The notes: generated by a model not told the origin, from the letters alone. Counted from the first letter of the whole stretch, positions 22,663-54,636 are shown. The stretch: 63,874 nt of DNA, filler included, from an uncultured Methanoregulaceae archaeon (GCA_964530035.1; 3 parts of 3 records of this genome joined end to end with filler, not necessarily neighbours in it); one strand, 5' to 3'. Numbers and translations: made by a program.

Positions 22663-22762
22663 NNNNNNNNNNNNNNNNNNNNNNNNNNNNNNNNNNNNNN
22701 NNNNNNTTAATTAATTAANNNNNNNNNNNNNNNNNNNNNNNNNNNNNNNNNNNNNNNNNNNN
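22663..22762. other. Artificial contig linker (N44-TTAATTAATTAA-N44)
   Basis: Six-frame stop spacer at 22707-22718 flanked by N runs. Confidence 0.97.
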
Positions 22763-22812
22763 CACCTGCAAGGAAGTTACCGGGGACAAGTGAGGGATGA
22801 AAGGGGCACGGG

Positions 22813-23172
22813 ATGAAAAAGCTGACCAAGGACGATATTCTCAAGGGAAAGGAACGGTCTGAAACCCTTGTTGTGCCAGGGTATGACGCTGAGGTCATCA
22901 TAAGGCCTCTCACCGACGGTGAACTCGGTGACGTGTTTGCCATCATCGGCCAGATACCCCTGAACGGGGACGGTGAGCCTGACGTGGGGAAGATCGACCC
23001 GGTCAGGCATTTCAAGGCATTGCGGCTTGCCGTGTCCCTTGGTATGAAGGACCCTTCGCTCAGCCCTGAAGAAGTCGCCGAGATGAAATTCGGCGTCCCG
23101 GAGTTCATCGGGATGAAGGTACTCGAACTTTCCGGGATGAGCGCCGGACAGGTTGCGCAACAAAAAAGGTAG
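22813..23172 (+). CDS. Putative tail assembly chaperone (lambda gpG-like position)
   Basis: 119 aa acidic protein with VIIRPLTDGEL; ends in CAA AAA AGG TAG; lies upstream of the tape-measure-position gene. Confidence 0.65.
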   Translation: MKKLTKDDILKGKERSETLVVPGYDAEVIIRPLTDGELGDVFAIIGQIPLNGDGEPDVGKIDPVRHFKALRLAVSLGMKDPSLSPEEVAEMKFGVPEFIGMKVLELSGMSAGQVAQQKR

Positions 23173-23396
23173 AGATCGAACAACTGGTGGAGTCTCCGGA
23201 CGGGAGGGAACTAGCGGCGCTCTGCCTTGATTTCGGGTATAAACTTGCACCAAGCCCGAAAGACCTGACCCGGGACCAGGTCCACTTCCTCTTTACCGCA
23301 TACAACCACCGCATGGAGCACGTAACCGCTTCGGCTCAGGGAGAGCCCGGCGTAACGAGGTTCCTCTTCCTTGATGACGAGGAAGACGAGTCCTGA
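23160..23396 (+). CDS. Putative gpT-like extension in the -1 frame of the chaperone
   Basis: The -1 frame is open across the A6 run (KKVEIEQLVESPDGRELAALC...PKDLTRDQVHFLF); it has only a GTG start at 23187 with no clear RBS. Confidence 0.55.
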   Translation, partial: TKKVEIEQLVESPDGRELAALCLDFGYKLAPSPKDLTRDQVHFLFTAYNHRMEHVTASAQGEPGVTRFLFLDDEEDES

Positions 23397-23477
23397 CCTG
23401 CCCGATGAACTGCCGTTTCAAACCAATAGACATACGATGGTACGAAAACACGGGAGGCATTCCTGAAGGGGGGTGTC

Positions 23478-25490
23478 ATGAGTAGAAGGAAGGTGGAAAA
23501 TCAGAACCAGGACCCGGTTGAGGTCCTTGTGCGGAGTGTCTACCGGTGTCACAAGGCAGGGATACGACAGTCAGGTCACCTGTTCTGCCAGTCATCAGGG
23601 GCAGGAACAGGTTTTTTTTCCGTGCTTGGCCTTCTCCTCTCGTGGTGGAGGAACCTGTCGGAGCTTTCAACATCTCCGTTCCACCTGCAAACCGCACCGG
23701 GAAAACCGAAACTGCACGAAGACAGGCCGGTGCCGGAACACCGCCCCTCAATTCCTGCCTATTCTGACATTCACGTCTGGTCTTCCCTTTCTGTTCTTTC
23801 GAGGGCCGATACCACCGCCATCTGGAATACATACTATCACTCCTCAGGACCGGCATCCATTCCCGGAATTCTGAACCTGAAAGAACCCGGACACCCTGGT
23901 GCCTCAAAAGAACCGCGAGGGGCAGGGGTTTTCATTCAGGAAAAGCCGCTTCACGACCGCCCGCAGGTCCCTTCCTTCATGAGCAGAATTGCATCCTACA
24001 CAAAACTGGCAATCATGTCCAGGGAGGTCATTTCCCACACCCTTCAGAGTCCTCTTGGTGATAGTGACCGGTATTTGGGACCACGTCCCGGGAGAACGGC
24101 CTCTCTCGCGGCATTCCACCTGCCGGCAGCCGGTACGGAGAGAAAACAGGAAACAGGATACGTGGGGGGAGATGGAGCCGGAACCCCCATTTCCGTTCCA
24201 CGGCCTACATCAGACGATGAACCAGGAGATCGAGGCGTTCATGAATCCGTTACGCCGGCATCCACTAAGGAGCCGGCAAGGGATCCTGTGGCGGTCAGGG
24301 ATATTCTCGCACGATCATCCCGCCTCTTTTCCTGGTATGACCATACCGGGGCGGTGATCCTTCATAGTATCTTTCAAGGGCTCGTCTCGCGGGATACTCA
24401 GATCGCCCGGGCAGCCCGGGATGACAAGGCCTATCCGGAGGTGGACGGAGAAAGAACGGATCGTTCAGAAAAAAGTCCGGAAGTGCGCCCCGGGGGGATA
24501 TTCAGGTTCCTGTTCAGCCAGGCAGGAGGTAGTGTTACTCACCTGTGGCCACCCGTGATGGAACGTCGCACTCCCCTGGGTGACGTTCCGACCCGGAGAC
24601 AGCATGCACTGGCACCTGCCACCTCCCCTTCATCAACCCATGGTGAAACCCGGTCCTTCATGCACAAGGTCCCTTCCTATCGTGTTGGAGTTCCGACCTT
24701 TGCTCCCCGGAAGGAATCTTTTGAGGGGCAGAAGGAAACTCCAAAGGAGTCAATATCCGGATTGGACAGTGCCATCGAGGTGTTATCTCCGCTCCTTCCT
24801 CCGGTACCCGCAGGGCTTTCGCCTGTCAGGGAGCCACCAGAAGGTCGCCTGTCCGTCCAGGACACCGCACACCCGCTTTCCCTCCTCATTTCCTACCATT
24901 CCGCACCCGGGTCGCCCCTTGCCACGGGTTTAGGGGTATTGTCCCGGTACCATTCGGCATTCCAGGAGCTCCTGGAACGGGTCAGGACAATAGAAACCCC
25001 GGTACGCCAGGTTACGGCCTCCGCCCGGTCCTTCAGGGAACGCCAGGAAAGCGTGTTGCGGGAGATCGTGACCTGCATGACAGATCAGGTTCAGGATATC
25101 GGGGGAGCAGGACCCGGTATGACCACCCGGGCTTACCAGGGCCCTTCTATGGTCCCTGACCTGAGGTTCCTGGAGAGTGGTTCCAGGACGGCGTTTCTGC
25201 AGGCACCCGGAATGTCAATCCTTGCTGTACCGCGGCCCTCCCTGTCACCACCTCCACCTGCGTCTATAGTACCTGTACCTCCCCCGGTGGCAACACCTTC
25301 ACTCATCATGAACAGGGATTCTCACCAGTATACACCGGCACCGGCAGGAACAACCAACCACTTCCATAATGATTTCCACATCACCGTCCAGGTCAGGGAC
25401 ACCAGTGATGAACGGGAACTCCGGGACCTCGGACGAAAAATCGGGAGAGTCCTTTCTGATGAACTCGCACGGTACGGGGGGGTCCTGTGA
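23478..25490 (+). CDS. Tape-measure-position protein, Pro/Ser-rich low complexity with TMP-like C-terminus
   Basis: Located between the chaperone and the DNA-circulation gene; C-terminal NHFHNDFHITVQV...RDLGRKIGRVLSDELARYG resembles tape-measure tails. Confidence 0.5.
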   Translation: MSRRKVENQNQDPVEVLVRSVYRCHKAGIRQSGHLFCQSSGAGTGFFSVLGLLLSWWRNLSELSTSPFHLQTAPGKPKLHEDRPVPEHRPSIPAYSDIHVWSSLSVLSRADTTAIWNTYYHSSGPASIPGILNLKEPGHPGASKEPRGAGVFIQEKPLHDRPQVPSFMSRIASYTKLAIMSREVISHTLQSPLGDSDRYLGPRPGRTASLAAFHLPAAGTERKQETGYVGGDGAGTPISVPRPTSDDEPGDRGVHESVTPASTKEPARDPVAVRDILARSSRLFSWYDHTGAVILHSIFQGLVSRDTQIARAARDDKAYPEVDGERTDRSEKSPEVRPGGIFRFLFSQAGGSVTHLWPPVMERRTPLGDVPTRRQHALAPATSPSSTHGETRSFMHKVPSYRVGVPTFAPRKESFEGQKETPKESISGLDSAIEVLSPLLPPVPAGLSPVREPPEGRLSVQDTAHPLSLLISYHSAPGSPLATGLGVLSRYHSAFQELLERVRTIETPVRQVTASARSFRERQESVLREIVTCMTDQVQDIGGAGPGMTTRAYQGPSMVPDLRFLESGSRTAFLQAPGMSILAVPRPSLSPPPPASIVPVPPPVATPSLIMNRDSHQYTPAPAGTTNHFHNDFHITVQVRDTSDERELRDLGRKIGRVLSDELARYGGVL

Positions 25491-26641
25491 ACATCGAGCT
25501 CGACGGCATACGGCTTATCTGGAGGAACCAGCCCGGGTCGCCGATCGATGTCAGGACAGTGACAAAGATCAACACGGCTGACCGGCGGGCCATCGTTGAA
25601 CATGAAATCCCCGGGATGCAGGGAAATGTCTTCCAGGACCTCGGGCGGGAACCGGTCAGGATATCCTTCGACGGCTCGTTTCATGGGGAGACAGCGAAAA
25701 ACACCCTGGAAATGGTCCGTTCCAAGTACAAGCAGGGTGTTCAGCTCCCGTTCAACTCGGATATCTCGGGTGCGAGCGATGTTACCAAGGTCGTCATCGA
25801 GGAATTTGTCGTGAAGGAAACCGCCGGCGTTCCCGAGATGTTCGAGTACACGCTTGTTTTGAGAGAGTACAAGGAACCTCCCCCAGAGCCGACGACACCT
25901 CCGACCAGGAAGGAGGAGGCGAAGGAATGGCTTGACAAGGAGGCCGAAAAGACCCGGGATTCGATCAATGTCGTTACCGGGAAGGTACTTGACGGGAATG
26001 GCAAGGCGAAACCAGGCGTCAGCGTGCTGCTGAAAAGCGCATCGGCGGAGTACAAGCTGACGACGAACGGGGAAGGTGTCTACCGGAAGGAGGACGTCCC
26101 GGCAGGTACGTACCGGGTAACCGTCGAAGACAAGGAGTACGAAGGCATCGAAGAGACCGTTGCCGTAGGCTCGGGAGGTGGTGAGGGCGAAAGCAGCGGA
26201 ACGGGCCCTGAAGAAGAGGGAGGTGGATCCGACGAGGGCGGCGAACCAGGAGAGGAACCCGGGAATGAGGACGAGAGCCGGGAACAAGGGACCGGTGAGG
26301 GATCAGAGGATGAATCTGGCGGGGTCCCGGAGAAGACAACCGGCCTGGAGAAACCCGGTGAGGAGCCGGTGTCTGGTGAATCGGGCAGGGGCGAAGAGGA
26401 TAATTCTGATGAAAGCAGTGGTCCGGACTCATCAGCGGAAAAGGGAGATGAAGGGGAGACTCCTGGTGGGGATGCACCCGGTGACAGTCTGACGGGGGAC
26501 GAGGCAGAACCAGATTATAGTTCTGGAACCCGGGATGAATCGGAAGATCCCGGTAGGGGTTCAGGAAAGGCACCGTCAGGTGACCAGCCTGATGAAGAGC
26601 AGCCAGAACCCAAAAAAGGTAAAAAAGGCAGCAAAAAGTGA
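25487..26641 (+). CDS. Mu-like DNA-circulation N-terminal (tube initiator-type) domain + prealbumin/carboxypeptidase-regulatory-like domain + acidic disordered tail
   Basis: RRAIVEHEIPGMQGNVFQDLGREPVRISFDGSF...FEYTLVLREY; VTGKVLDGNGKAKPGVSV...TTNGEGVY...VPAGTYRVTV; Glu/Gly-rich C-terminus. Confidence 0.75.
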   Translation: MNIELDGIRLIWRNQPGSPIDVRTVTKINTADRRAIVEHEIPGMQGNVFQDLGREPVRISFDGSFHGETAKNTLEMVRSKYKQGVQLPFNSDISGASDVTKVVIEEFVVKETAGVPEMFEYTLVLREYKEPPPEPTTPPTRKEEAKEWLDKEAEKTRDSINVVTGKVLDGNGKAKPGVSVLLKSASAEYKLTTNGEGVYRKEDVPAGTYRVTVEDKEYEGIEETVAVGSGGGEGESSGTGPEEEGGGSDEGGEPGEEPGNEDESREQGTGEGSEDESGGVPEKTTGLEKPGEEPVSGESGRGEEDNSDESSGPDSSAEKGDEGETPGGDAPGDSLTGDEAEPDYSSGTRDESEDPGRGSGKAPSGDQPDEEQPEPKKGKKGSKK

Positions 26642-26728
26642 CCCCTTGATAAAAAGAATATCGCACAGGGAAAGACCGATAGCAGGAACAGATCATCAGG
26701 AACCACAGGGCACGAAAACGAGTCCAGC

Positions 26729-28699
26729 ATGCAGAAACCGGCATATGAAATCAAGGTAGGATCCGTTACCTTTGACTCCCGCAACACCCAGGAGGTCGTA
26801 CGGGCTGCTGTCGAGCTGGACCTCAGTATTCCCCTTGATACCTTTGACCTCGTAATAAAGACCGGTGAGAAGACGAAGGACATCAAGAAGGGGGACCCGG
26901 TTACCATCAGCCTCGGTTACGAGGGCAGTCTCTCCAAGGTGTTCACGGGGACCGTTGACAGGATAACTCCGTCCATCAAGGCCATCCACCTGGCCGGTTA
27001 CTCGATGATGAACCTTCTGACGAGGAGAAACCAGAACAAGGTATACGAAAAACAGACCGCCGGGGACATCGTCAGCGACATCGCCAAGTCATTCGGGATC
27101 CGGGAGGAGAAGGTTGAGGACGGGATCTCCTTTCCCATGTATATCGTGGACGATACCAGGAGTGCCTACATGCACATCCGTGACATCGCCAGGAAATGCG
27201 GTTTCGATTTTTACATGACCTTCGAGGGAAAACTCGTTTTTCGCCAGTACCGTCGCACAACACCGAAACCATTCAAGTATGGACGGGACATCCTGTCGTA
27301 CGAGGTACAGCACCCGACGCCGGTCACCGCTTCGGTCAAGGTCCTTGGCGAGAGCCCGGCGAGTTTCAAGGGCGCCGACACGTCGCACTGGAGGACGAAG
27401 AAGGCGGTCGAGGGCTCGGCCGGTTCAGGCGATGTAACCTTCGTCATCGAGGACCCGGTCGTACGGGACAAGGAGTCGGCAGAAAAGGTCGCCCGTGCGT
27501 ACCTTGAGACCATCTTAACCCCGCTTTCCGGGACCATAACCACCCTCGGGAGCGCCCATGTCAGGGTGGGGGACACCATCTCTATCAAGGAAATGCCCGA
27601 CGGGGAGATGAACGGGGAGTTTGAAGTCACGGGGATAACCCATCATTTCAACAAGAAGGAAGGCTTCCTGTCCAGGGTCAACTGGGTCAGGAAGGCGGTC
27701 ATCGAGGAGGCCGAATCACCCCTGCCGGCGATGCCTGAGAGTCCGTCACTCCCGGGCTTCACGAACCCGCTCGGGGAACAGCTTGCTTCCCTCGAAAACG
27801 CCCTCGAAGAAATCAAACTCCGCCTGCTCGACGCCATCGAGACCGGGGAGATGGAACTCGAGAAGATGCTGGTGGAGATCAATTCGCTCCTTGCCGAACT
27901 GGACAGGGCCGCCCGGGAGATGATTGCTGCGGCAGAGGAATTGAAAAAGGAGGCAGAAAAAGCAGCCCGGGAGGTGCTTGGGGAGGTAGCAAAGCTCGAA
28001 AAGGAAGTCATGGAGAAGAAAAAGGAATTTGAAAAGTCTGTTTCAGAAATAAAATCAAAATACGAGGAATACAAGAAGAAGGCCGGCGAGGAGCTGGGAA
28101 AAGTCGAGGGGGAGCTCGACGGTCTGAAGGACAAGGTTACGGGACTGAAGGACAAGGCACTTGAGGAGGTCGCCGGGATCAGGGAAAAGGCGGAAGAAGA
28201 GGTCAGGAAACTTCAGGAATCGGTAGAGGATACAGCCGGGGCAGTCGGTGACACGATGGGTGATGCGGTTTCAGACACCCGTGAGAAGGTGTCAGGGAAG
28301 GTTGCAGAAATCCAAAAGAAATGCGAGGAAGAGGTGGCATCGGCACAGAAGACGGCAGAAGACGGGATAAAGGAAATCGCTGGCAGGGAGAAGGAGGTGA
28401 AAGACAGGATCGCAGATGCAAAGAAGGACCTCGCGGATGCCGGGAAGAAGGTAACCGGAGAGCTGGAAAAAGGGAAGAAAAAGTTTGATGATACGGTCGG
28501 GCAGGCACAGGACCAGATAGAGTCCTCAAAGAAAAAAGCAGAAACACTCGTAAAGGATGCGGACCGGAAGATCGAGGAAGTGCGGAAGAAGGCTGATGAG
28601 GCACGGGCAACGGCCGCAGCTAAAATCGAGGGGATGAAAAAGACCTACAACCAGGCCAAGGATAAAGTCCTGCAGGCCAAGGAACAGATCGGGATGTAA
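26729..28699 (+). CDS. Baseplate hub (phage late control D / gp27-like) with ~300 aa coiled-coil C-terminal extension
   Basis: GDPVTISLGYEGSLSKVFTGTVD, YEKQTAGDIVSDIA, DIARKCGFDFYM and GEFEVTGITHHFNKKEGFLS; then an E/K/A-rich helical region. Confidence 0.8.
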   Translation: MQKPAYEIKVGSVTFDSRNTQEVVRAAVELDLSIPLDTFDLVIKTGEKTKDIKKGDPVTISLGYEGSLSKVFTGTVDRITPSIKAIHLAGYSMMNLLTRRNQNKVYEKQTAGDIVSDIAKSFGIREEKVEDGISFPMYIVDDTRSAYMHIRDIARKCGFDFYMTFEGKLVFRQYRRTTPKPFKYGRDILSYEVQHPTPVTASVKVLGESPASFKGADTSHWRTKKAVEGSAGSGDVTFVIEDPVVRDKESAEKVARAYLETILTPLSGTITTLGSAHVRVGDTISIKEMPDGEMNGEFEVTGITHHFNKKEGFLSRVNWVRKAVIEEAESPLPAMPESPSLPGFTNPLGEQLASLENALEEIKLRLLDAIETGEMELEKMLVEINSLLAELDRAAREMIAAAEELKKEAEKAAREVLGEVAKLEKEVMEKKKEFEKSVSEIKSKYEEYKKKAGEELGKVEGELDGLKDKVTGLKDKALEEVAGIREKAEEEVRKLQESVEDTAGAVGDTMGDAVSDTREKVSGKVAEIQKKCEEEVASAQKTAEDGIKEIAGREKEVKDRIADAKKDLADAGKKVTGELEKGKKKFDDTVGQAQDQIESSKKKAETLVKDADRKIEEVRKKADEARATAAAKIEGMKKTYNQAKDKVLQAKEQIGM

Positions 28700-28946
28700 G
28701 GACGGGAAAGATAATGGATGCAGGGCACCTGGATCGCCTGAAAAGACATATCTGCTGCAATTTCCGGCTATTTTATAATGATTCCTCCTACCCTTATTTC
28801 GCCCTTCAGGTAGCAGGCATCAGTTTCCAGGACGGAACCAGGGGTATTCCCGGCAACGGACCAGAAGGAGGTACCTCAGATTCCTTCCCGGCTGGCATGG
28901 TCATCCGGAAATTAAAAGGATTCGTGATATCCTGGAGACAGGTACA

Positions 28947-31007: not shown

Positions 31008-31135
31008 TGAGAAATCAGATAACAGACCCGGCTCCGTTACAGAGAAGGATGGCGAATCCTTCAACTGACGTCTCCAAATCACTATTGTCTTGTCCCTTTG
31101 AAAAAAGATTGAGAGGGAGGCTTTGTTTCGCCTTC

Positions 31136-33169: not shown

Positions 33170-33417
33170 ACAGGTACACCATCAGAGAACGAGCTGATAA
33201 ATCATTCGGAGAGTGCGAAAAACCTTTCACCAGGGAGTTTAAAAGGGCCTATTCAGGGATCCAATCATAAAAAGGAATGATTATCATGTTTTTATTTGGT
33301 AAAAGAACCCCTATTCTCCAACAGGTCCTGCAAAGGGCACGGTTTTCGGGCAGGTACCATGCCGGCATAACTATAAATAACGACTCTAGTGTATAATTCA
33401 TAAAGTTCTTATATGGG

Positions 33418-33966
33418 ATGAGCATGGCCCGGGGAAGTGAAGAAAAAACCAAGGAAAAAGCAGAAAATCCTGCCGATTCAGTTAAAAAAACCTTTGATAA
33501 TACCGGGACAAAGGTTACCGGCGGTATCGACAGGGTGAAGGATGCCTATGCCTCGAAAAGACAGGCCGGCGATGACCTTCTCGCCAGGGCCCAGGGGCCG
33601 GCGACCGACCTGGCTGCAAAGACAGACCAGGCACGTTCTTCGTTCGACTCTGCGTTTGCAAGGCTGAACGGCCCGGCTGATGCCCTGTCGATGAGACAAC
33701 AGCAGGCACAGGCAGCCATCGATTCAGCCACCATGAAAGCCGAAAGTGCAGGACAACTCCTCTCAATACGGGAAAAGGCTCACAGCCTGTCACTGACGCA
33801 GCTTGACCAGGGTGTCGGCAATGCGAAAGGTATGGCAGACCAGGTTACCCAGGGCATCGAACAGCGCCAGGCCGAATTCAATACCACTTCAGGGATGATC
33901 ACAAGCCTGAAGGAGAAGATAGCAGCCCTGGCACAGGGTGCCGGGCAGCTCAACAGGCAGGGATAA
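33418..33966 (+). CDS. Hypothetical alpha-helical Ala/Gln/Lys-rich protein, first gene of the spike/baseplate operon
   Basis: 182 aa amphipathic helical composition; AT-rich promoter-like region upstream; 4 nt gap to the spike gene. Confidence 0.6.
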   Translation: MSMARGSEEKTKEKAENPADSVKKTFDNTGTKVTGGIDRVKDAYASKRQAGDDLLARAQGPATDLAAKTDQARSSFDSAFARLNGPADALSMRQQQAQAAIDSATMKAESAGQLLSIREKAHSLSLTQLDQGVGNAKGMADQVTQGIEQRQAEFNTTSGMITSLKEKIAALAQGAGQLNRQG

Positions 33967-33970
33967 TGCC

Positions 33971-34618
33971 ATGAACGCCGTCGAGGTCATCAGGAAAATC
34001 GTTGAGGAGGAGTCAAAGAAGATCCATATCCTGGAGATCGGGGTCATCACGTCCCTCTTCTCCCATGCCAGTTCCGGTGACCGGGACAATTACGAAGTCA
34101 ACGTGAAGCTCAAGAACCGGGACCTCGAGCTCCGGAAGGTCCCGGTGGCCACCCAGCATATCGGGCTGACGTACATCCCGAACATCGGGGACCTCGTCCT
34201 CGTTTCGTTTGTAAACGGCAACATCAACTCCCCCGTGGTCCTCGCCAGGCTTTTTTCAGATGAACAGCGACCACCTGAAAACCAGGCCGGAGAGATAATC
34301 TACGAGTCCCCGGACCCGAAGAAATCCGGCCTGAAACGGTTACAGCTCACGTTTAAAAGTGGAGTGTCCCTTTGCATTACCGATGATGATATTGTCATAA
34401 AGGCTGGAAAGACCACGGTTTCCATAACGAATGACGGTGACATCAGTATCGGTTCGAATGCGTCGATGGACCTGAAGGCAAAAGGAGACCTCACGCTCTC
34501 GGGCCGGAACGTCACGATTAAAAGTGACCAGGCTCTTGACCTCTCTGCAGGGACGACGGGAAAACTGGAGGCCACGGCAACCCTTGACCTCAAGGGAGCC
34601 ATGGTGAATATCAACTAG
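33971..34618 (+). CDS. Baseplate spike protein (P2 gpV / VgrG-like OB fold + beta-helix)
   Basis: YIPNIGDLVLVSFVNGNINSPVVLARLFSDEQRPP; C-terminal repeats ending LDLKGAMVNIN. Confidence 0.9.
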   Translation: MNAVEVIRKIVEEESKKIHILEIGVITSLFSHASSGDRDNYEVNVKLKNRDLELRKVPVATQHIGLTYIPNIGDLVLVSFVNGNINSPVVLARLFSDEQRPPENQAGEIIYESPDPKKSGLKRLQLTFKSGVSLCITDDDIVIKAGKTTVSITNDGDISIGSNASMDLKAKGDLTLSGRNVTIKSDQALDLSAGTTGKLEATATLDLKGAMVNIN

Positions 34619-34636
34619 GATGGAGCGGAGCAGATA

Positions 34637-35029
34637 ATGGGGATGCCGGCAGCGAAACAGGGAGACAAGATCCTTGCAATGGATATCCACATCATTTTGG
34701 TCCCGTCACCGGGAGGCCCGGTACCCACTCCATTGCCTCACCCGTTCAGCGGGATGATTGACTCCGGAACCAGTTCCAATGTCATGATCATGGGACTGCC
34801 CGCGGCCACCGTCGGTACGACCGCCACGAACATGCCCCCCCATATCCCCATGGGAGGCCCGTTCCAGGTCCCGCCGCGAAACCGTGGTACCATTATAACA
34901 GGGAGTCCCACCGTGCATATCAACGGAAAAATGGCGGCCAGGAACGGGGATACGGCGATGACCTGCAACGACCCGGCAGACCTGCCTTCAGGATCGGTTG
35001 TGGCGGCCGGGACGGTCATGATCGGATAG
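34637..35029 (+). CDS. PAAR-domain spike tip protein
   Basis: MPAAKQGD, IMGLPAATVG, GSPTVHINGKMAARNGD and VMIG. Confidence 0.92.
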   Translation: MGMPAAKQGDKILAMDIHIILVPSPGGPVPTPLPHPFSGMIDSGTSSNVMIMGLPAATVGTTATNMPPHIPMGGPFQVPPRNRGTIITGSPTVHINGKMAARNGDTAMTCNDPADLPSGSVVAAGTVMIG

Positions 35030-35040
35030 GAGGAAGGAGC

Positions 35041-35478
35041 ATGGACGAAGATCTTCTTGGAAAGGATTTGAGCATCCTCCTGGAACGCTACCCTGATGCC
35101 GGGGGACTTGGTGCCGACCTCGCCGTCACCCGGGACGGGGACGTCGACATCGTCGACGGGCGGCATAACCTTGGCCAGGCGGTCTTCCACCGGCTGCTCA
35201 CCAGACGGGGGGAACTGGCAGATATCGGGCATCCCGATTACGGTTCCCGGCTCCACGAACTCATCGGTGAGCCCAACAACCAGGCGACCCGGGAACTGGT
35301 CAGGCTCTATGTGAAAGAATGCCTCTCGCAGGAATCGCGGATCCAGGATATTCAGAGCATCAGGGTGACCGTCCCGGAGGACAACCGCCATGCGGTCATC
35401 ATCGATCTCTCGGTCGTACCCATCAGGTCTCTGGTCCCCATGAACCTGGTCTTTCCCTATTACCTCGAGGTGGGCTGA
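35041..35478 (+). CDS. gp25 / GPW baseplate wedge (sheath initiator)
   Basis: NLGQAVFHRLLTRRGEL...HPDYGSRLHELIGEP...ESRI; NLVFPYYL. Confidence 0.9.
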   Translation: MDEDLLGKDLSILLERYPDAGGLGADLAVTRDGDVDIVDGRHNLGQAVFHRLLTRRGELADIGHPDYGSRLHELIGEPNNQATRELVRLYVKECLSQESRIQDIQSIRVTVPEDNRHAVIIDLSVVPIRSLVPMNLVFPYYLEVG

Positions 35479-35480
35479 CA

Positions 35481-37022
35481 ATGACATTTAGCATGAAGAC
35501 CTTTTCCGAAATCACCGAGGAGATCCTGCAGCAGGTCACCCGCGGCATCGTACGGGAACGGCATGAATACGAGAGTGAAAGAACGAAATACAAACTGAAC
35601 GGTGACACCGTTCATGATATCATCAGGGTGGAGGGGGTCGTCGGGCAGAGCAGCCATGTCTTCAGATCAGGGACCGATTACCGTCGTTCCGGGACAATGC
35701 TCGAATGGGTTGACGGTGGCCAGAAACCAGACCCTGATTCATCTTTTTTTGTCAGCTATACCCTTGGGTCCGTATCGGCTATCACCGACGTCAACCCCGG
35801 CAGTGTGGTCAGGACATTCGTGGAAGCCATCGGACTCGAGGTGGACTTCCTGTATGCACAGATGAACGAGGTGTACCGTGCCGGTTTCATTGATACCGCA
35901 TCCGGAGAGTCACTTGACCTGGTGGTCTCGCTCCTTGGTATCGGAAGGAAACCCGCCGGCATGGCGCAGGGGGAGGTCACGTTCGGACGGCATTCGGAAC
36001 CGGGGACCATGGAGGTCACCCGCGAGACCCATATGTACGATGGTTCAGGCCAGGTTATCCTGAACAAGAAAGAGATCAGCCATATCGATACAGTTGAAGG
36101 AACCTCGGGGGGAAAGGAGGTGGCCCTTGAGGTGGGTAAGGATTATACCATCGACCGGAACTCACTCATCTTCTTGAAGGACGGCAGGAACCCGGACATC
36201 CAGACTCCTGTGTATGTCGACTATACCGCCTTCGAGTCCTACGTCATCCCGAGGGACACCCGGATTTCGACATACTCCCGGAAGGCATCCCAGGTGAAGG
36301 TATTCAGGACGCTCCGTGACACCGAGCTTGTCCGTTCCCCTGCCGGCAGGTGGGAAGTAACGGTGCCGGTTATCGCTGCCGAGGCAGGAAAGGCGGGAAA
36401 CGTATATGCCGGCACGTTAACGGTGATGCCGTCCCCTCCGATAGGCATTGAGTTCGTCATCAACCGGAGTGATATCCTGAACGGGACCGATGCTGAGGAA
36501 GACGCCGACCTCAGGGAACGGGCAAAACATGCCCTTGAAACTGCGGGAAAGGCCACCCTGTCATCAATTCGGTCAGCGGTCGAGGGGATCGAGGGGGTGA
36601 TCGGGGACGTGAAGGTCGTGGACCAGCCCGACGGAGTGCCAGGTCTTGTCCAGGTTATTGCAAGCGGGGGAAACGAGGCACGGATACGAGAGGTGATCGA
36701 TGATACCCGGTCGGCAGGTGTGCTGGTCGAGTTCAAGAGACCGAGGATGGTACCGGTCCATGTGGCCCTGACAATCACGGTCACCCAGGGTATCAGCCCG
36801 GACGAAGTCAGGCTCTCGGTTGACAAGGCCATCAGGGGGTACATGGGGTCGCTTGAAATCGACGAGGACATCATTGTCAGCCGTATCATCAGCCTTGTCC
36901 TCCAGGTTAAAGGGGTCAGGGATGTATTCAACGTGACCTTGAATGACCGGAACGAAAATATCGAGGTCAGGTTCGATGAAAAGGGAGAGCTCCGTCTCCT
37001 GGACATATTCATGGAGGACTAG
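35481..37022 (+). CDS. Baseplate J / gp47 family protein
   Basis: DVNPGSVVRTFVEA, FIDTASGESLD, AGKAGNV, GTDAEEDADLRERA, VKGVRDV. Confidence 0.9.
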   Translation: MTFSMKTFSEITEEILQQVTRGIVRERHEYESERTKYKLNGDTVHDIIRVEGVVGQSSHVFRSGTDYRRSGTMLEWVDGGQKPDPDSSFFVSYTLGSVSAITDVNPGSVVRTFVEAIGLEVDFLYAQMNEVYRAGFIDTASGESLDLVVSLLGIGRKPAGMAQGEVTFGRHSEPGTMEVTRETHMYDGSGQVILNKKEISHIDTVEGTSGGKEVALEVGKDYTIDRNSLIFLKDGRNPDIQTPVYVDYTAFESYVIPRDTRISTYSRKASQVKVFRTLRDTELVRSPAGRWEVTVPVIAAEAGKAGNVYAGTLTVMPSPPIGIEFVINRSDILNGTDAEEDADLRERAKHALETAGKATLSSIRSAVEGIEGVIGDVKVVDQPDGVPGLVQVIASGGNEARIREVIDDTRSAGVLVEFKRPRMVPVHVALTITVTQGISPDEVRLSVDKAIRGYMGSLEIDEDIIVSRIISLVLQVKGVRDVFNVTLNDRNENIEVRFDEKGELRLLDIFMED

Positions 37023-37025
37023 GTG

Positions 37026-37943
37026 ATGGCGAGGAAGAAAGAGATCTCACAGCACCTTCCCCATTTTTACCGCTCCTGGGACCGGGAATCAGCCCTGTCC
37101 ATGATCATCGCCGGAGTCGGCTCCGCCCTTGACGAGACCGAAAAGGACCTCGTGTCGATCATGAGGAGCCACTGGGTCGACACTGCCCATGCACACGACC
37201 TCGATCATATCGGGAGCCTGTACGGTCTTTCGAGAAGACCCGGTGAGACGGACCCTGAGTTACGGAACCGCCTGAAAAGGGCTATACTGAGCTACAAGGG
37301 AGGAGGCACCCCTGGAGCGGTCCGGATGGTGGTGCGGATGCTCCTCCGGCTGCCTCCCGACCACCCGGTAACCATCATAGAAAATCCTAAACGGACAGTT
37401 AAGAAAACCCTGCAGGTAAGGGCGAACCAGGAATTTCTCTTGAACCCTCGTTCCATTGAGGATACCGTACCCCGGATAACCTTTGAAATCGAGACACCGG
37501 ATACCCTTGCCACGGACCCGAGCTTCACGAACCTCACCACGGGACGGACGGTGACCTATAAGGGACGGGTGTCGAGCGGGGACGTCCTCGTCATGTCCGC
37601 TGATGGATCGACCCTGAACGGCACGGATGTATCAGGGTCCACCGTGTATGAGGGTTTTCCCGACCTCCCGAGAAGACGGTCCACCTGGAAGTACTCGGAG
37701 CAGACCGGGGGGAATATAGGCGTTTTTGACCGGACAGCCTTCGATGAATCGGTTTTTGCCATCGATATCATCGCCAGGGTGACCGTCGAGTGGCAGGCCC
37801 GGGAACCAGCAGCGTTCGAAGTCCGCATAGAAAAAGAACTGCTCGATACTGCGGGGCTATCCAAATTTGACCTCCTTGAAGGGCTCAATGCCATCAAGGC
37901 ATGCGGAGTGAAGGCCTATGTACAGGTCGTTGAACAGACATGA
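37026..37943 (+). CDS. Baseplate wedge protein (P2 gpI / Mu gp48-like) with inserted Dit-like beta domain
   Basis: HLPHFY, WVDTAHAHDLDHIG...RRPGETDPELRNRL...GGGT, C-terminal IKACGVKA; directly after baseplate J. Confidence 0.75.
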   Translation: MARKKEISQHLPHFYRSWDRESALSMIIAGVGSALDETEKDLVSIMRSHWVDTAHAHDLDHIGSLYGLSRRPGETDPELRNRLKRAILSYKGGGTPGAVRMVVRMLLRLPPDHPVTIIENPKRTVKKTLQVRANQEFLLNPRSIEDTVPRITFEIETPDTLATDPSFTNLTTGRTVTYKGRVSSGDVLVMSADGSTLNGTDVSGSTVYEGFPDLPRRRSTWKYSEQTGGNIGVFDRTAFDESVFAIDIIARVTVEWQAREPAAFEVRIEKELLDTAGLSKFDLLEGLNAIKACGVKAYVQVVEQT

Positions 37944-37985
37944 CGGAGACAGGGCATCAGCCTCGTCCTGCGACAGGGAGTGACC

Positions 37986-38603
37986 ATGGCAAAAAAGTAT
38001 AAACCGGAACGAAAGAAACCAGGAGACCTCATCAGGTCCGAGGACTGGAACGCACTCGTTGATGAAGTTATCTTCCTTCGGAAGTATATCGGGAACATGA
38101 CCCGGAGCGTTACCCTGACCAACCTCGAGAGCCCGTCAGGAAAATCCCAGCTACTCAGCTCCGGTGTCCAGGAGGAGTTCAATTACGGGACCGACGTGCT
38201 CGGCCTCATCACCAGGCAGTTCTATACCACGGGAGAGGAGATTGGAGACGTATGCAAATACGGCCTGATCGATTATGCGGATATCATCTATTACTGGGCA
38301 GGGGCGATGAACGGTGACAGGAAAGCCCTCGAGATCACGCTTGAATATTTCGACGGCACGAATTATGCCTCGGATAGTCTCCTTATCCACGAATGGTCGA
38401 AACTTCGTCCGAAGGGGAAGGAAAATCCCTGGGTGGAGTATCTTTATTCGCCGAACCAGCGCCTGTGGTATAAATATGCGCTTAAAAATCCTTCACCTGA
38501 CAAAGGGATACGGTTTATTACCTTCAGGGACACGAGTTCCGAGACAGGCATCAGGATAGCCAACGTCCTCCAGTACGTGACACGGATATGGCCTCTCGAG
38601 TAG
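37986..38603 (+). CDS. Hypothetical protein, possible short fibre / receptor-binding component
   Basis: N-terminal PGDLIRSEDWNAL motif and short coiled coil, then a beta-rich aromatic domain. Confidence 0.5.
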   Translation: MAKKYKPERKKPGDLIRSEDWNALVDEVIFLRKYIGNMTRSVTLTNLESPSGKSQLLSSGVQEEFNYGTDVLGLITRQFYTTGEEIGDVCKYGLIDYADIIYYWAGAMNGDRKALEITLEYFDGTNYASDSLLIHEWSKLRPKGKENPWVEYLYSPNQRLWYKYALKNPSPDKGIRFITFRDTSSETGIRIANVLQYVTRIWPLE

Positions 38604-38610
38604 GTGGCTG

Positions 38611-39309
38611 ATGCACCCGGTGGAACAGGTCCTGCTTGAAGTCCTTCAAGCGGGACTATCCGGTCTTGTGGACCCTGGTTGCATCTGCATCGGCGGGACA
38701 GGACCGGTGGGCAGTAAATCGGTCACCATTTCCGAGCAGTGTTTTCATGTCAGGAACGAGTCGATCGGTGACTTCGGCGGTGCCCGGCAAACGGAGTGCG
38801 AGGACATCTTCAGTGGTGATGGCCGGACGGCCGTGTTCACTCTTACCCATCATCCGCAGAACCCACTCCTTGCCGTCGAACACCCCCAGGGGAACCGCCT
38901 TGGTGACCCTGATGGTTACACGGCGGATTACCGGAGCGGTACAGTTACCTTCAGGGTGCCGCCGGGAAAAGGCAAGGACAACATCCGTGTCAGATATACC
39001 CTGGCGTCCTCGGTTGCCGAAATCCTTCATGTTGCGATGACATACGACTATATCGTTACCGTTTCGGCGGATACACGTGAAATCCGTGACGCTATCGCAA
39101 TCGAGGTCATCAGGACCCTCTACCGGGACAGAAATATCCTTGCCGCGAATGGTATCCTGGAGGTCCGCATCAATGAAGGGTACCCCGTGCAGATCTCTGA
39201 CGAAGACGCATCTGAAGCGCTGAACATCGAGTGCAGCCTCGATACGATCATTCCGGTCGAGATACCGGTACCCCCGATTGAGAAGGTGGAGATCGGGAAA
39301 AAAAAGTGA
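38611..39309 (+). CDS. Hypothetical tail protein, possible cap/terminator (Pvc16/DUF4255-like position) with inserted beta domain
   Basis: Last gene of the locus; N-terminal helix VEQVLLEVLQAGL, YDYIVTVSA strand, C-terminal PVEIPVPPIEKVEI. Confidence 0.45.
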   Translation: MHPVEQVLLEVLQAGLSGLVDPGCICIGGTGPVGSKSVTISEQCFHVRNESIGDFGGARQTECEDIFSGDGRTAVFTLTHHPQNPLLAVEHPQGNRLGDPDGYTADYRSGTVTFRVPPGKGKDNIRVRYTLASSVAEILHVAMTYDYIVTVSADTREIRDAIAIEVIRTLYRDRNILAANGILEVRINEGYPVQISDEDASEALNIECSLDTIIPVEIPVPPIEKVEIGKKK

Positions 39310-45292: not shown

Positions 45293-45392
45293 NNNNNNNN
45301 NNNNNNNNNNNNNNNNNNNNNNNNNNNNNNNNNNNNTTAATTAATTAANNNNNNNNNNNNNNNNNNNNNNNNNNNNNNNNNNNNNNNNNNNN
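45293..45392. other. Artificial contig linker (N44-TTAATTAATTAA-N44)
   Basis: Same spacer as at 22663-22762. Confidence 0.97.
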
Positions 45393-46495
45393 AGGGCGTG
45401 AATAAAACCCTCGACGCGGTCATGGAGCCGGTCAACGAGGCGCTCAGGGTCTCGAAGGAGTTTGCAGCCACGAACTTCGCCGCCCGGGTCGACCCGTCCC
45501 TCAAGGTCGCCGGTGACTGGGTCACCCTGAGGGACGCCCTGAACAATATCGGCTCTGAGGTCTCAAAGGCGATCAGCCTGATCACCTCCCGGGTGACCGA
45601 CCTCGCCTCGTCCGCCGAGGAAGCGAATGCGTCGGTCGAGGAGGTCGCGTCCGGCTCGTCCCAGGTCTCGAAAAATGTCACGAAAGTCAGCAGCAACATG
45701 GAGCATGTCAGGGGGAGCGCCGGCCAGGTCATGCGGGCCATGGAGGACCTCTCGGTGACAGTCCAGTCGGTCGCCACCAAGAGCGAGTCGGTCTCGCGGC
45801 TCGCGATGGATGCAAACGACCTCTCGAAGAAGGGTGCAGGCCTCGCGAAGAACGCCGACAACGGAATGGCCGCGATCACGAAGAACACCGCCCAGGTCGC
45901 GGAGATCGTCGACCAGATCAAGGGCCAGATGACCCAGATCGGCAAGATCGTCGGGCTCATCAGCGACCTTGCCAGCCAGACGAACCTGCTCGCCATGAAC
46001 GCGGCGATAGAAGCCGCCCGTGCCGGCGATGCAGGGAGGGGGTTCGCCGTTGTCGCCACCGAGGTGAAATCCCTCGCCCAGGAGTCACGGGCATCGGCCG
46101 AGAACATCGCCTCGATGATCGGCTCCCTCGAGAAGATGACCCTCGAGGCATCGGATGCAATGCACGAGTCAGGGAAGACCGTCGAAGAAGGGAGCCGGGC
46201 ACTCTCCGAGACGCTCGAGGTCTTCAACCGGATCGTCGGGTCCATCAGTCAGATCACCACCAACGTCGAGGAGGTCGCAAGTGCGTCCCAGGAACAGGCG
46301 GCCTCGGTCGAGGAGATCACGGCCAGCGTGAACGAGGTGAACGACCTCGTGGAACAGACCGGCAGGGAGTCGATGGACGCTGCCGCGGCAAGCGAGGAGG
46401 CGACCGCCTCCCTTGACCAGATCGCGAAGATCGTCGGAAACCTCAACGTCATCGTCGAGGACGTATCAAAGGAGATGCGCCGGTTCAGGGTCTGA
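45393..46495 (+). CDS. Methyl-accepting chemotaxis protein, C-terminal part
   Basis: [37 protein letters not shown] signalling hairpin; 5' end lost in gap. Confidence 0.95.
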
Positions 46496-50265: not shown

Positions 50266-50278
50266 CGTCCAGCACTCC

Positions 50279-54634: not shown

Positions 54635-54636
54635 CC

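What the first reader, a model, noticed from the sequence alone, without database searches (positions are those of the whole stretch)
22813..39309. Headless contractile phage-tail-like locus in a methanogen: candidate archaeal tailocin / contractile injection system
Seen: co-oriented genes for a chaperone pair, a tape-measure-position protein, a DNA-circulation-type tube initiator, a late-control-D hub, gpV spike, PAAR, gp25, baseplate J, a gpI-like wedge, and fibre-like and cap-like proteins. Ordinary host genes follow (7TM kinase, surface protein). No capsid, portal, terminase, integrase or lysis gene is present in this contig, and a host-type surface-protein gene splits the locus. Established: gp25 + J + gpV + PAAR define contractile baseplates. 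Canonical Afp/PVC-type eCIS use a fused VgrG-like Afp8, a LysM-type Afp7 and an AAA+ ATPase. Here hub and spike are separate and the initiator is Mu-like, which is closer to R-type tailocins or P2/Mu tails, yet a PAAR tip and a possible cargo are present. Inference: a domesticated injection machine of an unusual subtype. Caveat: sheath, tube and any head genes could lie beyond the contig break at 22762.
Basis: partly seen in the sequence, partly recalled or inferred. Interest (0 to 1): 0.92.

Follow-up and report, generated by a model that had tools for sequence, protein, structure and literature searches.

The report
Headless contractile tail machine in methanogen
This methane-making archaeon keeps a complete, well-preserved virus-tail "syringe" with no virus head. 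It belongs to an apparently undescribed archaeal lineage that travels with its own membrane partner protein and probably punctures or injects neighbouring cells.

Summary
The window is three contigs joined by N spacers, and the locus lies on contig C19. The 3' end of another contig of the same genome, C76, overlaps the 5' end of C19 by an exact, unique 52 bases. C76 carries the missing sheath and tube genes, preceded by 9.2 kb of ordinary host genes.

The full set runs: sheath, tube, two chaperone-position ORFs, tape measure, Mu-N-like initiator, gpD hub, gpV spike, PAAR, gp25, J, gpI, a CBM-like protein, and a tail terminator/cap. No terminase, portal or HK97 capsid was found in the genome, which is 86% complete.

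The same gene order, with host genes on both sides, occurs in seven genomes of another archaeal family. Sheath proteins of that kind are named Methanocella by their sources. dN/dS against a congener is 0.03–0.21.

The locus fails the defining tests of Afp/PVC-type eCIS: no gp19-type tube, no AAA+ ATPase, and a split spike. One published eCIS survey scored Methanocella genomes negative.

A bitopic Ig plus double-zinc-ribbon membrane protein accompanies the locus almost exclusively.

A variable slot after the hub holds candidate effectors: a peptidoglycan-binding-like protein here and a phospholipase C in a relative.

Function and mode of action remain inferred.

The parts
22763..22793 (+). Last nine codons and stop of the tail tube gene. 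The rest of the tube gene (G000:C76:10608-11036) and the sheath gene (C76:9231-10586) lie on contig C76, outside the window.
   Evidence: Exact, unique 52-base overlap between the 3' end of C76 and the 5' end of C19. Sheath: PF04984 E 7e-23 and PHROG tail sheath E 9e-46. Tube: PF18906 E 3e-4, weak. Tube is followed by the chaperone gene in all related loci.
22813..23172 (+). Tail assembly chaperone-like protein (119 aa)
   Evidence: PHROG 344 tail assembly chaperone E 4e-4, weak. It sits between tube and tape measure. 55-64% identical in relatives.
23187..23396 (+). Second small chaperone-position ORF (69 aa), in the -1 frame relative to the first. The first ORF ends in a run of six A.
   Evidence: Read from the sequence. 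Conserved at 48-55% in relatives. No family hit.
23478..25490 (+). Tape-measure-position protein (670 aa), rich in P/S/R. Only the last ~50 residues are conserved.
   Evidence: No family hit. The C-terminal 43-59 residues are 51-56% identical to ORFs at the same position in 4 of the 5 Methanocella-type loci compared, and no other frame matches them; the fifth (G130) shares no conserved C-terminus.
25487..26641 (+). Mu gpN-like / DUF6046 tube-initiator-position protein, with a CarboxypepD_reg Ig-like domain and an acidic low-complexity tail (384 aa)
   Evidence: DNA_circ_N E 8e-4 and DUF6046 E 6e-3 (both below cut-off); CarboxypepD_reg E 9e-11. Orthologues hit DUF6046/DNA_circ_N at E 1e-5 to 3e-9.
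26729..28699 (+). Baseplate hub (gpD/YqbQ-like, residues 1-~320) fused to a ~330-residue apolipoprotein-like coiled-coil extension
   Evidence: Phage_GPD E 5e-8; PHROG baseplate hub E 2e-16; Apolipoprotein-type helices at residues 384-550. Extension length varies among relatives, 322-872 aa in total.
28947..31007 (+). Lineage-specific 686-aa protein in the variable slot; candidate cargo. Layout: acidic N-terminus, a module related to PG_binding_1 proteins (about residues 144-365), and a C-terminal domain of unknown family (about 440-685).
   Evidence: Only two close relatives among 5.8 billion proteins. A profile search found 19 hits; four of the five that match the N-module (P0124 has none) carry PG_binding_1. 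Residues 143-322 align with the PG_binding_1 protein in the same slot of G151 (E 1e-7).
31136..33169 (-). Inserted host-type secreted surface protein (signal peptide, CARDB, PT-rich linker, NosD/beta-helix). Probably not part of the machine.
   Evidence: NosD E 1e-29, Beta_helix, CARDB. Paralogues on six other contigs of the genome and none in related loci.
33418..33966 (+). Small coiled-coil protein (182 aa) just before the spike gene
   Evidence: No family hit. A 105-183-aa coiled-coil ORF sits at the same place in G019, G119, G141, G151, G166 and G174. All six loci with a long-extension hub have it, and none of the five with a short hub do.
33971..34618 (+). Spike (gpV / Mu gp45-like OB-fold plus beta-helix), 215 aa from the ATG
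   Evidence: Phage_base_V E 3e-6 (28.1 bits, cut-off 23.8); PHROG baseplate assembly E 4e-8. The start is set by the G019 orthologue.
34637..35029 (+). PAAR spike tip (130 aa, no extension domain)
   Evidence: PAAR_motif E 6e-16. 65-73% identical in relatives.
35041..35478 (+). Sheath initiator (gp25 / gpW-like)
   Evidence: Sheath_initiator E 3e-10, GPW_gp25 E 1e-6, PHROG 975 E 8e-23.
35481..37022 (+). Baseplate wedge J (gp6-like), 513 aa
   Evidence: Baseplate_J E 2e-29; PHROG 6 E 2e-51. Best known viruses are haloarchaeal myoviruses at about 30% identity.
37023..37943 (+). Baseplate wedge gpI-like protein (306 aa)
   Evidence: Tail_P2_I E 0.002 (below cut-off); PHROG baseplate protein E 3e-10.
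37980..38603 (+). Fibre-position protein (207 aa): N-terminal helix plus jelly-roll/CBM-like beta-sandwich. It is the most constrained of the seven genes compared.
   Evidence: AF2 model pLDDT 80. Weak Foldseek hits (E about 1e-3) to sugar-binding and CBM modules. 60-63% identical across orders. dN/dS 0.026.
38611..39309 (+). Tail terminator / cap (232 aa)
   Evidence: AF2 model pLDDT 82. Top Foldseek PDB hits are chains of myovirus neck / tail-terminator entries (8qkh_G E 4e-10, 8q01_M, 8jan_A, 9b42_G, 8kef_a). Also matched: the PVC cap (9qgn_A), the pyocin R2 collar (6u5f_A) and the Streptomyces CIS cap (9gts).

Best explanation
The locus is a complete, head-less, phage-tail-derived contractile injection apparatus. 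It belongs to a lineage kept by methanogenic archaea and built on the Mu/PBSX/P2 tail plan, not the Afp/PVC plan.

Shown:
- All parts of a contractile tail are encoded in one direction: sheath, tube, chaperones, tape measure, initiator, gpD hub, gpV spike, PAAR tip, gp25, J, gpI and terminator.
- Host genes lie on both sides.
- No head or packaging genes were found.
- The genes are under purifying selection.

Inferred mechanism: the baseplate (gp25-J-I around the gpD/gpV/PAAR hub) nucleates the tube and sheath. The tape measure sets their length and the terminator caps them. A trigger at the baseplate makes the sheath contract and drive the PAAR-tipped spike, with associated cargo, through a membrane.

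More speculative mode of action: the machine is docked or triggered at the producer's own membrane by the co-inherited bitopic protein. That protein has extracellular Ig/PKD domains, one transmembrane helix, two cytoplasmic Ig-like domains and a C-terminal double zinc ribbon. This would resemble CisA in Streptomyces or the anchor of the haloarchaeal T6SS. The cargo would come from the variable slot after the hub. Here that slot holds a 686-aa protein with a peptidoglycan-binding-like module. In a relative it holds a PG_binding_1 protein and a Zn-dependent phospholipase C. Since, from general knowledge, these archaea have no peptidoglycan, bacteria are the likely targets.

The confidence given (0.68) is for the headless, functional contractile machine of a separate lineage. 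The docked, anti-bacterial mode of action is rated apart, under the novel case.
For: Contig join: the C76 3' end equals the C19 5' end over an exact, unique 52 bases. C76 carries the sheath (PF04984 E 7e-23; PHROG E 9e-46) and tube genes, then 9.2 kb of host genes: VTC, DUF4956, wHTH, Hjc-like nuclease, Cache sensor and others.

Head genes: 0 matches in the genome (86% complete) to Terminase_6N, TerL_ATPase, Phage_capsid or Phage_portal. No tRNA genes on either contig, no flanking direct repeats of 14 bases or more, and locus GC 0.55 against 0.56 for the genome.

Terminator fold for the last gene.

Synteny: the full gene order is conserved in 7 genomes of family f14. Parts of the order are on short contigs of G349 and G019. 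In three single-contig genomes the flanks are host genes. 0 of 5 of these genomes have Terminase_6N or HK97 capsid matches.

Selection: dN/dS is 0.026-0.21 for 7 genes against same-genus genome G019.

Distribution: the sheath is 59-78% identical to proteins from genomes named Methanocella, Methanoperedens, Methanothrix, Methanomicrobiaceae and Methanomethylicia. It was found in 9 of 401 genomes sampled from the phylum, 7 of 15 in f14.

Membrane partner: it is single-copy in this genome. It is adjacent in 6 of 6 loci whose flanks are on the same contig. All 8 matches in 5 genomes lie within about 5 kb of the locus. It is present in 8 of 9 sheath-positive genomes and 2 of 392 sheath-negative genomes of the same sample.

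Effector slot.
Against: - There is no evidence of expression or of particles. The only candidate RNA runs are probably DNA.
- No classical tail fibre, no lysis genes and no recycling ATPase were found, so neither the tailocin route nor the T6SS-like route is complete on paper.
- A minus-strand host gene interrupts the locus and may disturb co-transcription.
- The locus is sporadic in the organism's own family: 2 of 101 genomes, including this one. This fits horizontal spread as well as it fits domestication.
- Two genomes have the membrane-partner homologue but no detectable sheath. Four of the 14 partner matches (G141, G166, G349, G265) contain in-frame stops.
- The peptidoglycan-binding module here is degenerate and has no Pfam hit of its own. 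It could be a relic of a bacterial-phage ancestor rather than a sign of bacterial targets.
- The tape-measure-position protein has an atypical, probably disordered composition.
Confidence: 0.68

Rival explanations
1. It is a classical extracellular R-type tailocin. Particles would be released by producer lysis and kill related archaea by membrane depolarisation, with the 207-aa CBM-like protein acting as receptor binder.
For: The gene plan is that of phage-derived tailocins: sheath, tube, G/GT-position chaperones, tape measure, D, V, W, J, I and terminator, with no heads. The fibre-position protein has a carbohydrate-binding-like fold.
Against: No holin, endolysin or other lysis cassette was found in the locus or its flanks. 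One weak PHROG 'endolysin' hit (E 5e-4) falls inside the initiator-like protein. The presumed receptor binder is the most conserved of the seven genes compared with G019 (dN/dS 0.026; about 60% identity across orders), which is unlike specificity determinants in an arms race. A dedicated membrane protein with a conserved cytoplasmic module co-occurs with the locus. Candidate effectors and a PAAR tip suggest delivery rather than simple puncture.
Confidence: 0.2
2. It is a decaying remnant of a myovirus provirus with no present function.
For: The locus is sporadic within the organism's family (2 of 101). A host gene has been inserted into it. No head genes were found.
Against: All core ORFs are intact. 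dN/dS is 0.03-0.21. The same complete gene set is kept in 7 genomes of another family between different host genes. There are no integrase, att-like repeats or tRNA genes, and GC matches the genome.
Confidence: 0.05
3. It is the tail module of a functional virus whose head and replication genes lie elsewhere, either on unassembled DNA or in a helper virus.
For: The genome is only 86% complete and is in 229 contigs. IMG/VR lists three related contigs as viral.
Against: Host genes directly flank the sheath gene here and flank both ends in three single-contig genomes. 0 of 5 related genomes have Terminase_6N or HK97 capsid matches. The IMG/VR contigs show only tail genes and the zinc-ribbon protein in the parts read.
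Confidence: 0.03
4. It is a divergent member of the Afp/PVC-type eCIS (PLTS) superfamily already described in archaea.
For: It shares the generic core of sheath, gp25, J, gpI-like, PAAR and cap fold. TIGR02243 and TIGR02242 give weak hits below cut-off. The PVC and Streptomyces CIS caps are among the fold hits.
Against: No gp19-type tube in the genome. No AAA+ ATPase or LysM protein in the locus. The hub and spike are split. Phage-type chaperone ORFs are present. The sheath is only remotely similar to Afp3 (E 4e-4) and to PVC or Streptomyces sheaths. Geller et al. 2021 Supplementary Data 1 scores M. arvoryzae MRE50, M. paludicola SANAE and M. conradii as eCIS-negative.
Confidence: 0.04

Closest known systems
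Tail modules of Mu-like / PBSX (xkdK-xkdV) / P2-like myoviruses, and the R-type tailocins derived from them
   Same: The gene order is the same: sheath, tube, two chaperone-position ORFs, tape measure, Mu-gpN-like protein, gpD/YqbQ-like hub, gpV spike, gp25/W, J, I. A terminator of the phage-neck / pyocin-collar fold is present. Like tailocins, it has no head. The gene names of Mu, PBSX and P2 are recalled, not fetched.
   Different: The host is archaeal. No lysis cassette and no long fibre with its chaperone were found. A PAAR tip is present. The hub carries a long coiled-coil extension paired with a small coiled-coil protein. There is a variable effector-like slot and a dedicated zinc-ribbon membrane partner. 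Sequence similarity to any phage in the collection searched is low: sheath 28% or less.
Haloarchaeal myoviruses such as HSTV-2 (Hafunaviridae)
   Same: These give the best viral match for the J protein, at about 28-33% identity. The annotated order of tube, sheath, tube, chaperones (joined by frameshift), tape measure and baseplate is the same.
   Different: HSTV-2 is a complete virus of 68.5 kb (104 annotated features; a DNA polymerase and a thymidylate synthetase lie in the stretch read). Only J, out of 21 query proteins, gives a BLAST match to its tail region.
Afp/PVC-type eCIS (PLTS) of archaea, including the haloarchaeal T6SS of Halogeometricum borinquense (Zachs et al. 2024, PMC11566945; Sarris et al. 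2014, PMC4122934; Chadwick et al. 2022, PMC9012536; passages read)
   Same: Both are headless contractile machines in archaea with a PAAR spike and a gp25/J baseplate. In the haloarchaeal system a conserved neighbouring membrane protein correlates with a cell-anchored mode of action.
   Different: Those systems have the cis1-16 gene set with an AAA+ ATPase, and lack the tape measure in H. borinquense. Here the tube, hub and spike are of phage type and no ATPase is present.
Streptomyces coelicolor cytoplasmic CIS with its membrane adaptor CisA (PMC12237407; abstract and passages read)
   Same: A bitopic membrane protein is encoded next to the baseplate genes, at the place where tail fibres usually sit. 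It has a cytoplasmic part proposed to recruit the CIS to the membrane, and it is needed for firing. The zinc-ribbon protein here has the same kind of genomic link and a conserved cytoplasmic module.
   Different: No sequence or domain relationship is apparent. CisA has a disordered cytoplasmic N-terminus and an extracytoplasmic solute-binding-like domain. The protein here has extracellular Ig/PKD domains and a cytoplasmic Ig plus double-zinc-ribbon C-terminus. The Streptomyces CIS is Afp-type (subtype IId).

Membership tests
Afp/PVC-type eCIS (PLTS, cis1-16) | Tube proteins of the T4 gp19 family (Afp1/Afp5, PF06841) | tested here: not met
   0 matches to PF06841 in the whole genome. The tube-position protein hits only PF18906 Phage_tube_2, weakly (E 3e-4).
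Afp/PVC-type eCIS (PLTS, cis1-16) | AAA+ ATPase (Afp15/Cis15) in the cluster | tested here: not met
   No AAA-type domain in any of the 18 + 13 ORFs of the locus and its flanks.
Afp/PVC-type eCIS (PLTS, cis1-16) | Fused VgrG-like spike (Afp8) and LysM protein (Afp7) | tested here: not met
   The hub (Phage_GPD) and spike (Phage_base_V) are separate genes, 5 kb apart here. No LysM hit.
Afp/PVC-type eCIS (PLTS, cis1-16) | Cap protein Afp16/Cis16 (DUF4255) | tested here: inconclusive
   The last gene has the terminator/cap fold, and the PVC and Streptomyces CIS caps are among its matches. Myovirus terminators score better, and no Pfam family matches even at E up to 1.
Afp/PVC-type eCIS (PLTS, cis1-16) | Recognised by published eCIS surveys | tested here: not met
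   Geller et al. 2021 Supplementary Data 1 gives ecis = 0 for M. arvoryzae MRE50, M. paludicola SANAE and M. conradii HZ254. The first two carry sheath homologues of this lineage. In Chen et al. 2019 the Methanocella genomes are in the screened set, but the name does not occur in the held files that list loci; those files may be incomplete.
R-type tailocin | Contractile tail gene set without head, packaging or replication genes | tested here: met
R-type tailocin | Lysis cassette for release | tested here: not met
   No holin or endolysin family in the locus or flanks. One weak PHROG endolysin hit (E 5e-4) lies inside the initiator-like protein. Archaeal lysis genes are poorly known, so absence is not proven.
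R-type tailocin | Tail fibre and chaperone that set target specificity | tested here: inconclusive
   Only a 207-aa helix plus CBM-like protein sits at the fibre position, and it is highly conserved.
R-type tailocin | Killing of related strains by released particles | not testable with these tools
   This needs cultures and purified particles.
Integrated myovirus (provirus) | Terminase, portal and major capsid genes; integrase and att sites | tested here: not met
   0 matches genome-wide for four head/packaging families, in an 86% complete genome. No integrase domain in locus ORFs. No tRNA genes and no flanking repeats.
Type VI secretion system | TssB/TssC sheath, ClpV, TssJLM/TssK membrane complex | not tested
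   Only in-locus domains were examined. The sheath is of the phage type (PF04984), and a tape measure and a terminator are present. No genome-wide Tss search was run.
Mu/PBSX-type tail module (architecture, not a protein family) | Order sheath-tube-chaperones-tape measure-N-D-V-W-J-I with separate hub and spike | tested here: met
   YQBQ-like and DNA_circ_N/DUF6046 hits occur in orthologues.

The most novel reading that the evidence does not exclude
Methanogenic archaea carry a contractile weapon domesticated independently of the Afp/eCIS superfamily from a myovirus tail. A dedicated bitopic double-zinc-ribbon protein docks or triggers it at the producer's membrane. It delivers exchangeable anti-bacterial effectors (peptidoglycan-binding proteins, phospholipase C) into bacterial neighbours. 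This would be a cross-domain injection system acting in methanogenic consortia.
Probability: 0.27. Interest if true: 0.9.

Novelty: new variant of a known kind. Interest (0 to 1): 0.75.

Why it matters
In the passages I read, the archaeal contractile injection systems described are all of the Afp/PVC type and are thought to have been acquired from bacteria. My six literature searches found no archaeal tailocin-like machine built on a phage Mu/P2 plan.

This lineage would be a second, independent route from virus tail to cellular tool in Archaea. It occurs in cultured strains: source names include Methanocella paludicola SANAE and M. arvoryzae. The question is therefore directly testable by microscopy and proteomics.

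Near-identical copies of this locus stretch occur in DNA runs of six studies, labelled bioreactor sludge, biogas fermenter, anaerobic digester and wastewater metagenomes. Any of these runs may be the source of this genome.

If the machine targets bacteria, it would bear on how methanogens hold their place in syntrophic consortia. The co-inherited zinc-ribbon membrane protein also offers a new case for the open question of how cytoplasmic contractile machines are coupled to membranes.

Tried and rejected
- Complex prediction of the cytoplasmic part of the zinc-ribbon protein with the 207-aa fibre-position protein: no answer (score 0.00). This is no evidence either way.
- Expression: no listed holder is on record as RNA. 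Three runs labelled RNA-Seq were laid, and the tool rates them 'probably DNA'. They gave short contigs over about half of the stretch. No conclusion on expression.
- Two metagenome scans for the 686-aa protein's neighbourhood, meant to verify the contig join and the insertion independently, found nothing.
- ESM Atlas look-ups of the 686-aa protein, whole and C-terminal part: no usable hit.
- Sequence-profile searches of the 207-aa and 232-aa proteins against PDB sequences: nothing meaningful.
- NCBIfam: no locus protein reaches a curated cut-off.
- Genome-contig scan with the J protein: one close relative only, a 5.5-kb MAG contig.
- Makarova et al. 2019 (PMC6509191) is not held and could not be read.
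- I considered a canonical -1 slippery heptamer at the end of the first chaperone ORF. The run of six A is not in the canonical register, and relatives have overlapping start/stop codons instead. The frameshift is left open.

Full report
**What the window is.** N runs at 22663-22762 and 45293-45392, each around a TTAATTAATTAA linker, show that the window is three contigs laid end to end. They are C18, C19 (22,530 bases, window 22763-45292) and C31 of a 2.36-Mb, 229-contig genome rated 86% complete. The finding lies wholly on C19, and the 'contig break at 22762' is real.

**Observation.**
- a chaperone-like ORF (PHROG E 4e-4);
- a second small ORF in the -1 frame;
- a 670-aa ORF at the tape-measure position;
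- a protein with weak DNA_circ_N/DUF6046 signals plus a CarboxypepD_reg domain;
- a Phage_GPD hub with a long coiled-coil tail;
- Phage_base_V;
- PAAR (E 6e-16);
- sheath initiator/gp25;
- Baseplate_J (E 2e-29);
- a gpI-like protein.

The tape-measure-position ORF looks odd: it is rich in P, S and R and has no family hit. It is nevertheless the only long frame there. Its last 43-59 residues are 51-56% identical to the ORFs at the same position in 4 of the 5 relatives compared; the fifth, G130, ends differently.

The two unnamed last genes were folded:
- The 232-aa protein (pLDDT 82) matches chains of myovirus neck and tail-terminator entries (best E 4e-10). It also matches the PVC cap, the pyocin R2 collar and the Streptomyces CIS cap.
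- The 207-aa protein (pLDDT 80) is an N-terminal helix plus a jelly-roll sandwich. It has weak likeness (E about 1e-3) to sugar-binding modules.

The minus-strand gene 31136-33169 is a secreted CARDB/NosD beta-helix protein. It has paralogues on six other contigs of the genome and none in related loci. Downstream lie a 7TM histidine kinase and a Cthe_2159 surface protein.

**The missing upstream part.**
- A genome-wide search for the phage sheath family found one gene, near the 3' end of contig C76.
- The last 52 bases of C76 are identical to the first 52 of C19. No other contig end overlaps either contig.
- C76 encodes the sheath (451 aa; PF04984 E 7e-23; PHROG E 9e-46) and a 142-aa tube-position protein. 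The stop codon of the tube gene lies at window 22791-22793.
- The 9.2 kb upstream encode host-type proteins: VTC, DUF4956, a winged-helix regulator, an Hjc-like nuclease, a Cache sensor, DUF498, a PKD/Ig membrane protein and a lipoprotein-like ORF.
- The tube-to-chaperone order across the join is the order seen on single contigs in all relatives.
- The genome has no match to Terminase_6N, TerL_ATPase, HK97 Phage_capsid or Phage_portal.
- There are no tRNA genes on either contig and no direct repeats of 14 bases or more flanking the locus. Locus GC (0.55) equals the genome's (0.56).

The locus is therefore headless on present evidence. It runs for about 18.4 kb, from the sheath gene to 39309.

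**Relatives.**
- The J protein was found in only 2 of 101 genomes sampled from the organism's own family. These are this genome and a same-genus genome (G019, 90% identity). A named scan returned a matching contig titled as an uncultured Methanospirillaceae MAG.
- The sheath has 913 database relatives at E 1e-5 or better. The best 120 are 59-96% identical.
- Where sources name them, they come from Methanocella paludicola SANAE, M. arvoryzae, other Methanocella, Methanoperedens, Methanothrix, a Methanomicrobiaceae MAG and Methanomethylicia.
- In a 401-genome sample of the phylum, 9 genomes have the sheath: this genome, 7 of 15 in family f14 and 1 of 7 in f6.
- I fetched these loci. Seven f14 genomes show the full order sheath, tube, chaperone, small ORF, tape measure, initiator-like, hub, spike, gp25, J, I, 207-aa homologue, terminator. 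The PAAR gene lies between spike and gp25 in all but G159, where BLAST found none. In G174 the contig starts at the 207-aa homologue, so its terminator gene is not held.
- G349 and G019 hold parts of this order on short contigs.
- In three single-contig genomes the flanks are host genes: chemoreceptors, an RNase P subunit, rubrerythrin, permeases and others.
- 0 of 5 f14 genomes match Terminase_6N or HK97 capsid.
- Three IMG/VR contigs with 48-59% identical sheaths contain only tail genes in the parts read.
- Against G019, seven genes give dN/dS of 0.026-0.21 by a Nei-Gojobori count in my own script.

This is a maintained gene set, not debris.

**A dedicated membrane partner.**
- Next to the locus here (C76:5792-7843, minus strand) lies a 683-aa protein. 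It has a signal/anchor sequence, Big_1/PKD/Invasin-type Ig domains, a mid-protein transmembrane helix, about 220 further residues, and a C-terminal double zinc ribbon.
- Homologues of the part from the helix onward are 37-48% identical, with eight invariant cysteines and basic residues just after the helix. This fits a cytoplasmic location for that part.
- They lie beside the locus in all 6 loci whose flanks are on the same contig.
- The gene is single-copy in this genome.
- All 8 matches in five f14 genomes lie within about 5 kb of the locus.
- Across the same 401 genomes, 10 have the protein. Eight of these are among the 9 sheath-positive genomes.
- The ninth, G174, has its locus at a contig end.
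- Two genomes (G265, G136) have the protein but no detectable sheath, and four of the 14 matches (G141, G166, G349, G265) carry in-frame stops.
- The two more distant IMG/VR loci have a 200-aa soluble zinc-ribbon protein upstream of the sheath gene.

I read this protein as a component of the system. By analogy with CisA of Streptomyces and the anchor of the haloarchaeal T6SS, it may dock or trigger the machine at the membrane. That step is inference.

**Variable parts.**
- The hub carries a 270-550-residue apolipoprotein-like coiled-coil extension in six loci. Each of those also has a small coiled-coil protein just before the spike gene.
- The five loci with a short hub have no such protein.
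- Between hub and coiled-coil gene this genome has the 686-aa protein and the inserted host gene.
- In G151 the same slot holds a PG_binding_1 protein (E 1e-11), a 206-aa unknown and a Zn-dependent phospholipase C (E 6e-13).
- Residues 143-322 of the 686-aa protein align with that PG_binding_1 protein (E 1e-7).
- An exhaustive profile search found 19 relatives. Four of the five that match the N-module (P0124 has none) carry PG_binding_1. Those matching the C-terminal domain have no known family.

From general knowledge, these archaea lack peptidoglycan. Such modules therefore suggest bacterial targets, though a relic of a bacterial-phage ancestor cannot be excluded.

**Comparison with what is known.**
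- The plan is that of Mu/PBSX/P2-type tails and the tailocins derived from them. The gene names are recalled; the order was tested here.
- Among viruses in the collection searched, J is closest to haloarchaeal myoviruses (about 30% identity). Their annotated tail module has the same order, but only J gives a BLAST match.
- The sheath is at most 28% identical to any phage sheath found. It is only remotely related to solved sheaths, with a best E of 6e-15.
- The locus fails the defining features of Afp/PVC-type eCIS: no gp19-type tube, and no AAA+ ATPase, LysM protein or fused VgrG.
- Geller et al. 2021 scored the three Methanocella genomes eCIS-negative (supplement read).
- Sarris 2014, Chadwick 2022, the 2025 ANME-3 paper and Zachs 2024 (passages read) describe archaeal systems of the Afp type only.
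- Six full-text searches found no description of this lineage. Makarova et al. 2019 could not be read, and the supplements of Chen et al. 2019 may be incomplete.
I reached the same reading before seeing it.

**Verdict.** This is a real, complete and conserved headless contractile machine of phage Mu/P2 architecture in a methanogen. It is a new variant of a known kind. What it hits, and whether it fires from the cell or as a free particle, remains open.

Noticed in passing
window 45393-63874 (contig C31): This contig has 60-66% G+C, against about 55% for the other two contigs and 56% for the genome. It may be an island or a binning error.
   Followed up: no
window 25000-30000: There is a strong purine skew on the + strand (AT skew 0.23-0.29, GC skew 0.11-0.21). 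It coincides with the acidic and lysine-rich low-complexity and coiled-coil stretches of the initiator-like, hub and 686-aa proteins.
   Followed up: partly
window 23160-23190: The first chaperone ORF ends in CAA AAA AGG TAG, a run of six A. The next ORF is open in the -1 frame across it. A G/GT-type frameshift or transcriptional slippage is possible, but the heptamer is not in the canonical register.
   Followed up: partly
window 39553-41295: The 7TM sensor region (HisKA_7TM, 224 aa) and the PAS/HATPase part (333 aa) are separate ORFs 66 bases apart. This may be a split or broken histidine kinase.
   Followed up: no
L021:16726-19120 (G151): The hub-to-spike slot of a related locus encodes a PG_binding_1 protein, a 206-aa unknown and a Zn-dependent phospholipase C. 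These are candidate exchangeable effectors.
   Followed up: partly
L026:8321-9739 (G174), L020 and L028: Some related loci carry two copies of the initiator-like gene. In G174 a 472-aa ORF without any Pfam family lies between them.
   Followed up: partly
L031-L033 (IMG/VR contigs): Contigs filed as viral contain only tail genes and the zinc-ribbon protein in the parts read. In L032 the baseplate block precedes the sheath block. They may be cellular injection-system loci rather than viruses.
   Followed up: partly
G265:C46:236-1039 and G136:C48:2107-2739: Homologues of the zinc-ribbon partner occur in two genomes where no sheath was found. The one in G265 has an in-frame TAG and lies at a contig edge.
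   Followed up: partly
G000:C76:8062-9042: A 326-aa lipoprotein-like ORF (weak DUF2927, E 7e-4) sits between the zinc-ribbon protein gene and the sheath gene, co-oriented with the locus. It has one paralogue on C8 and no counterpart in related loci.
   Followed up: partly
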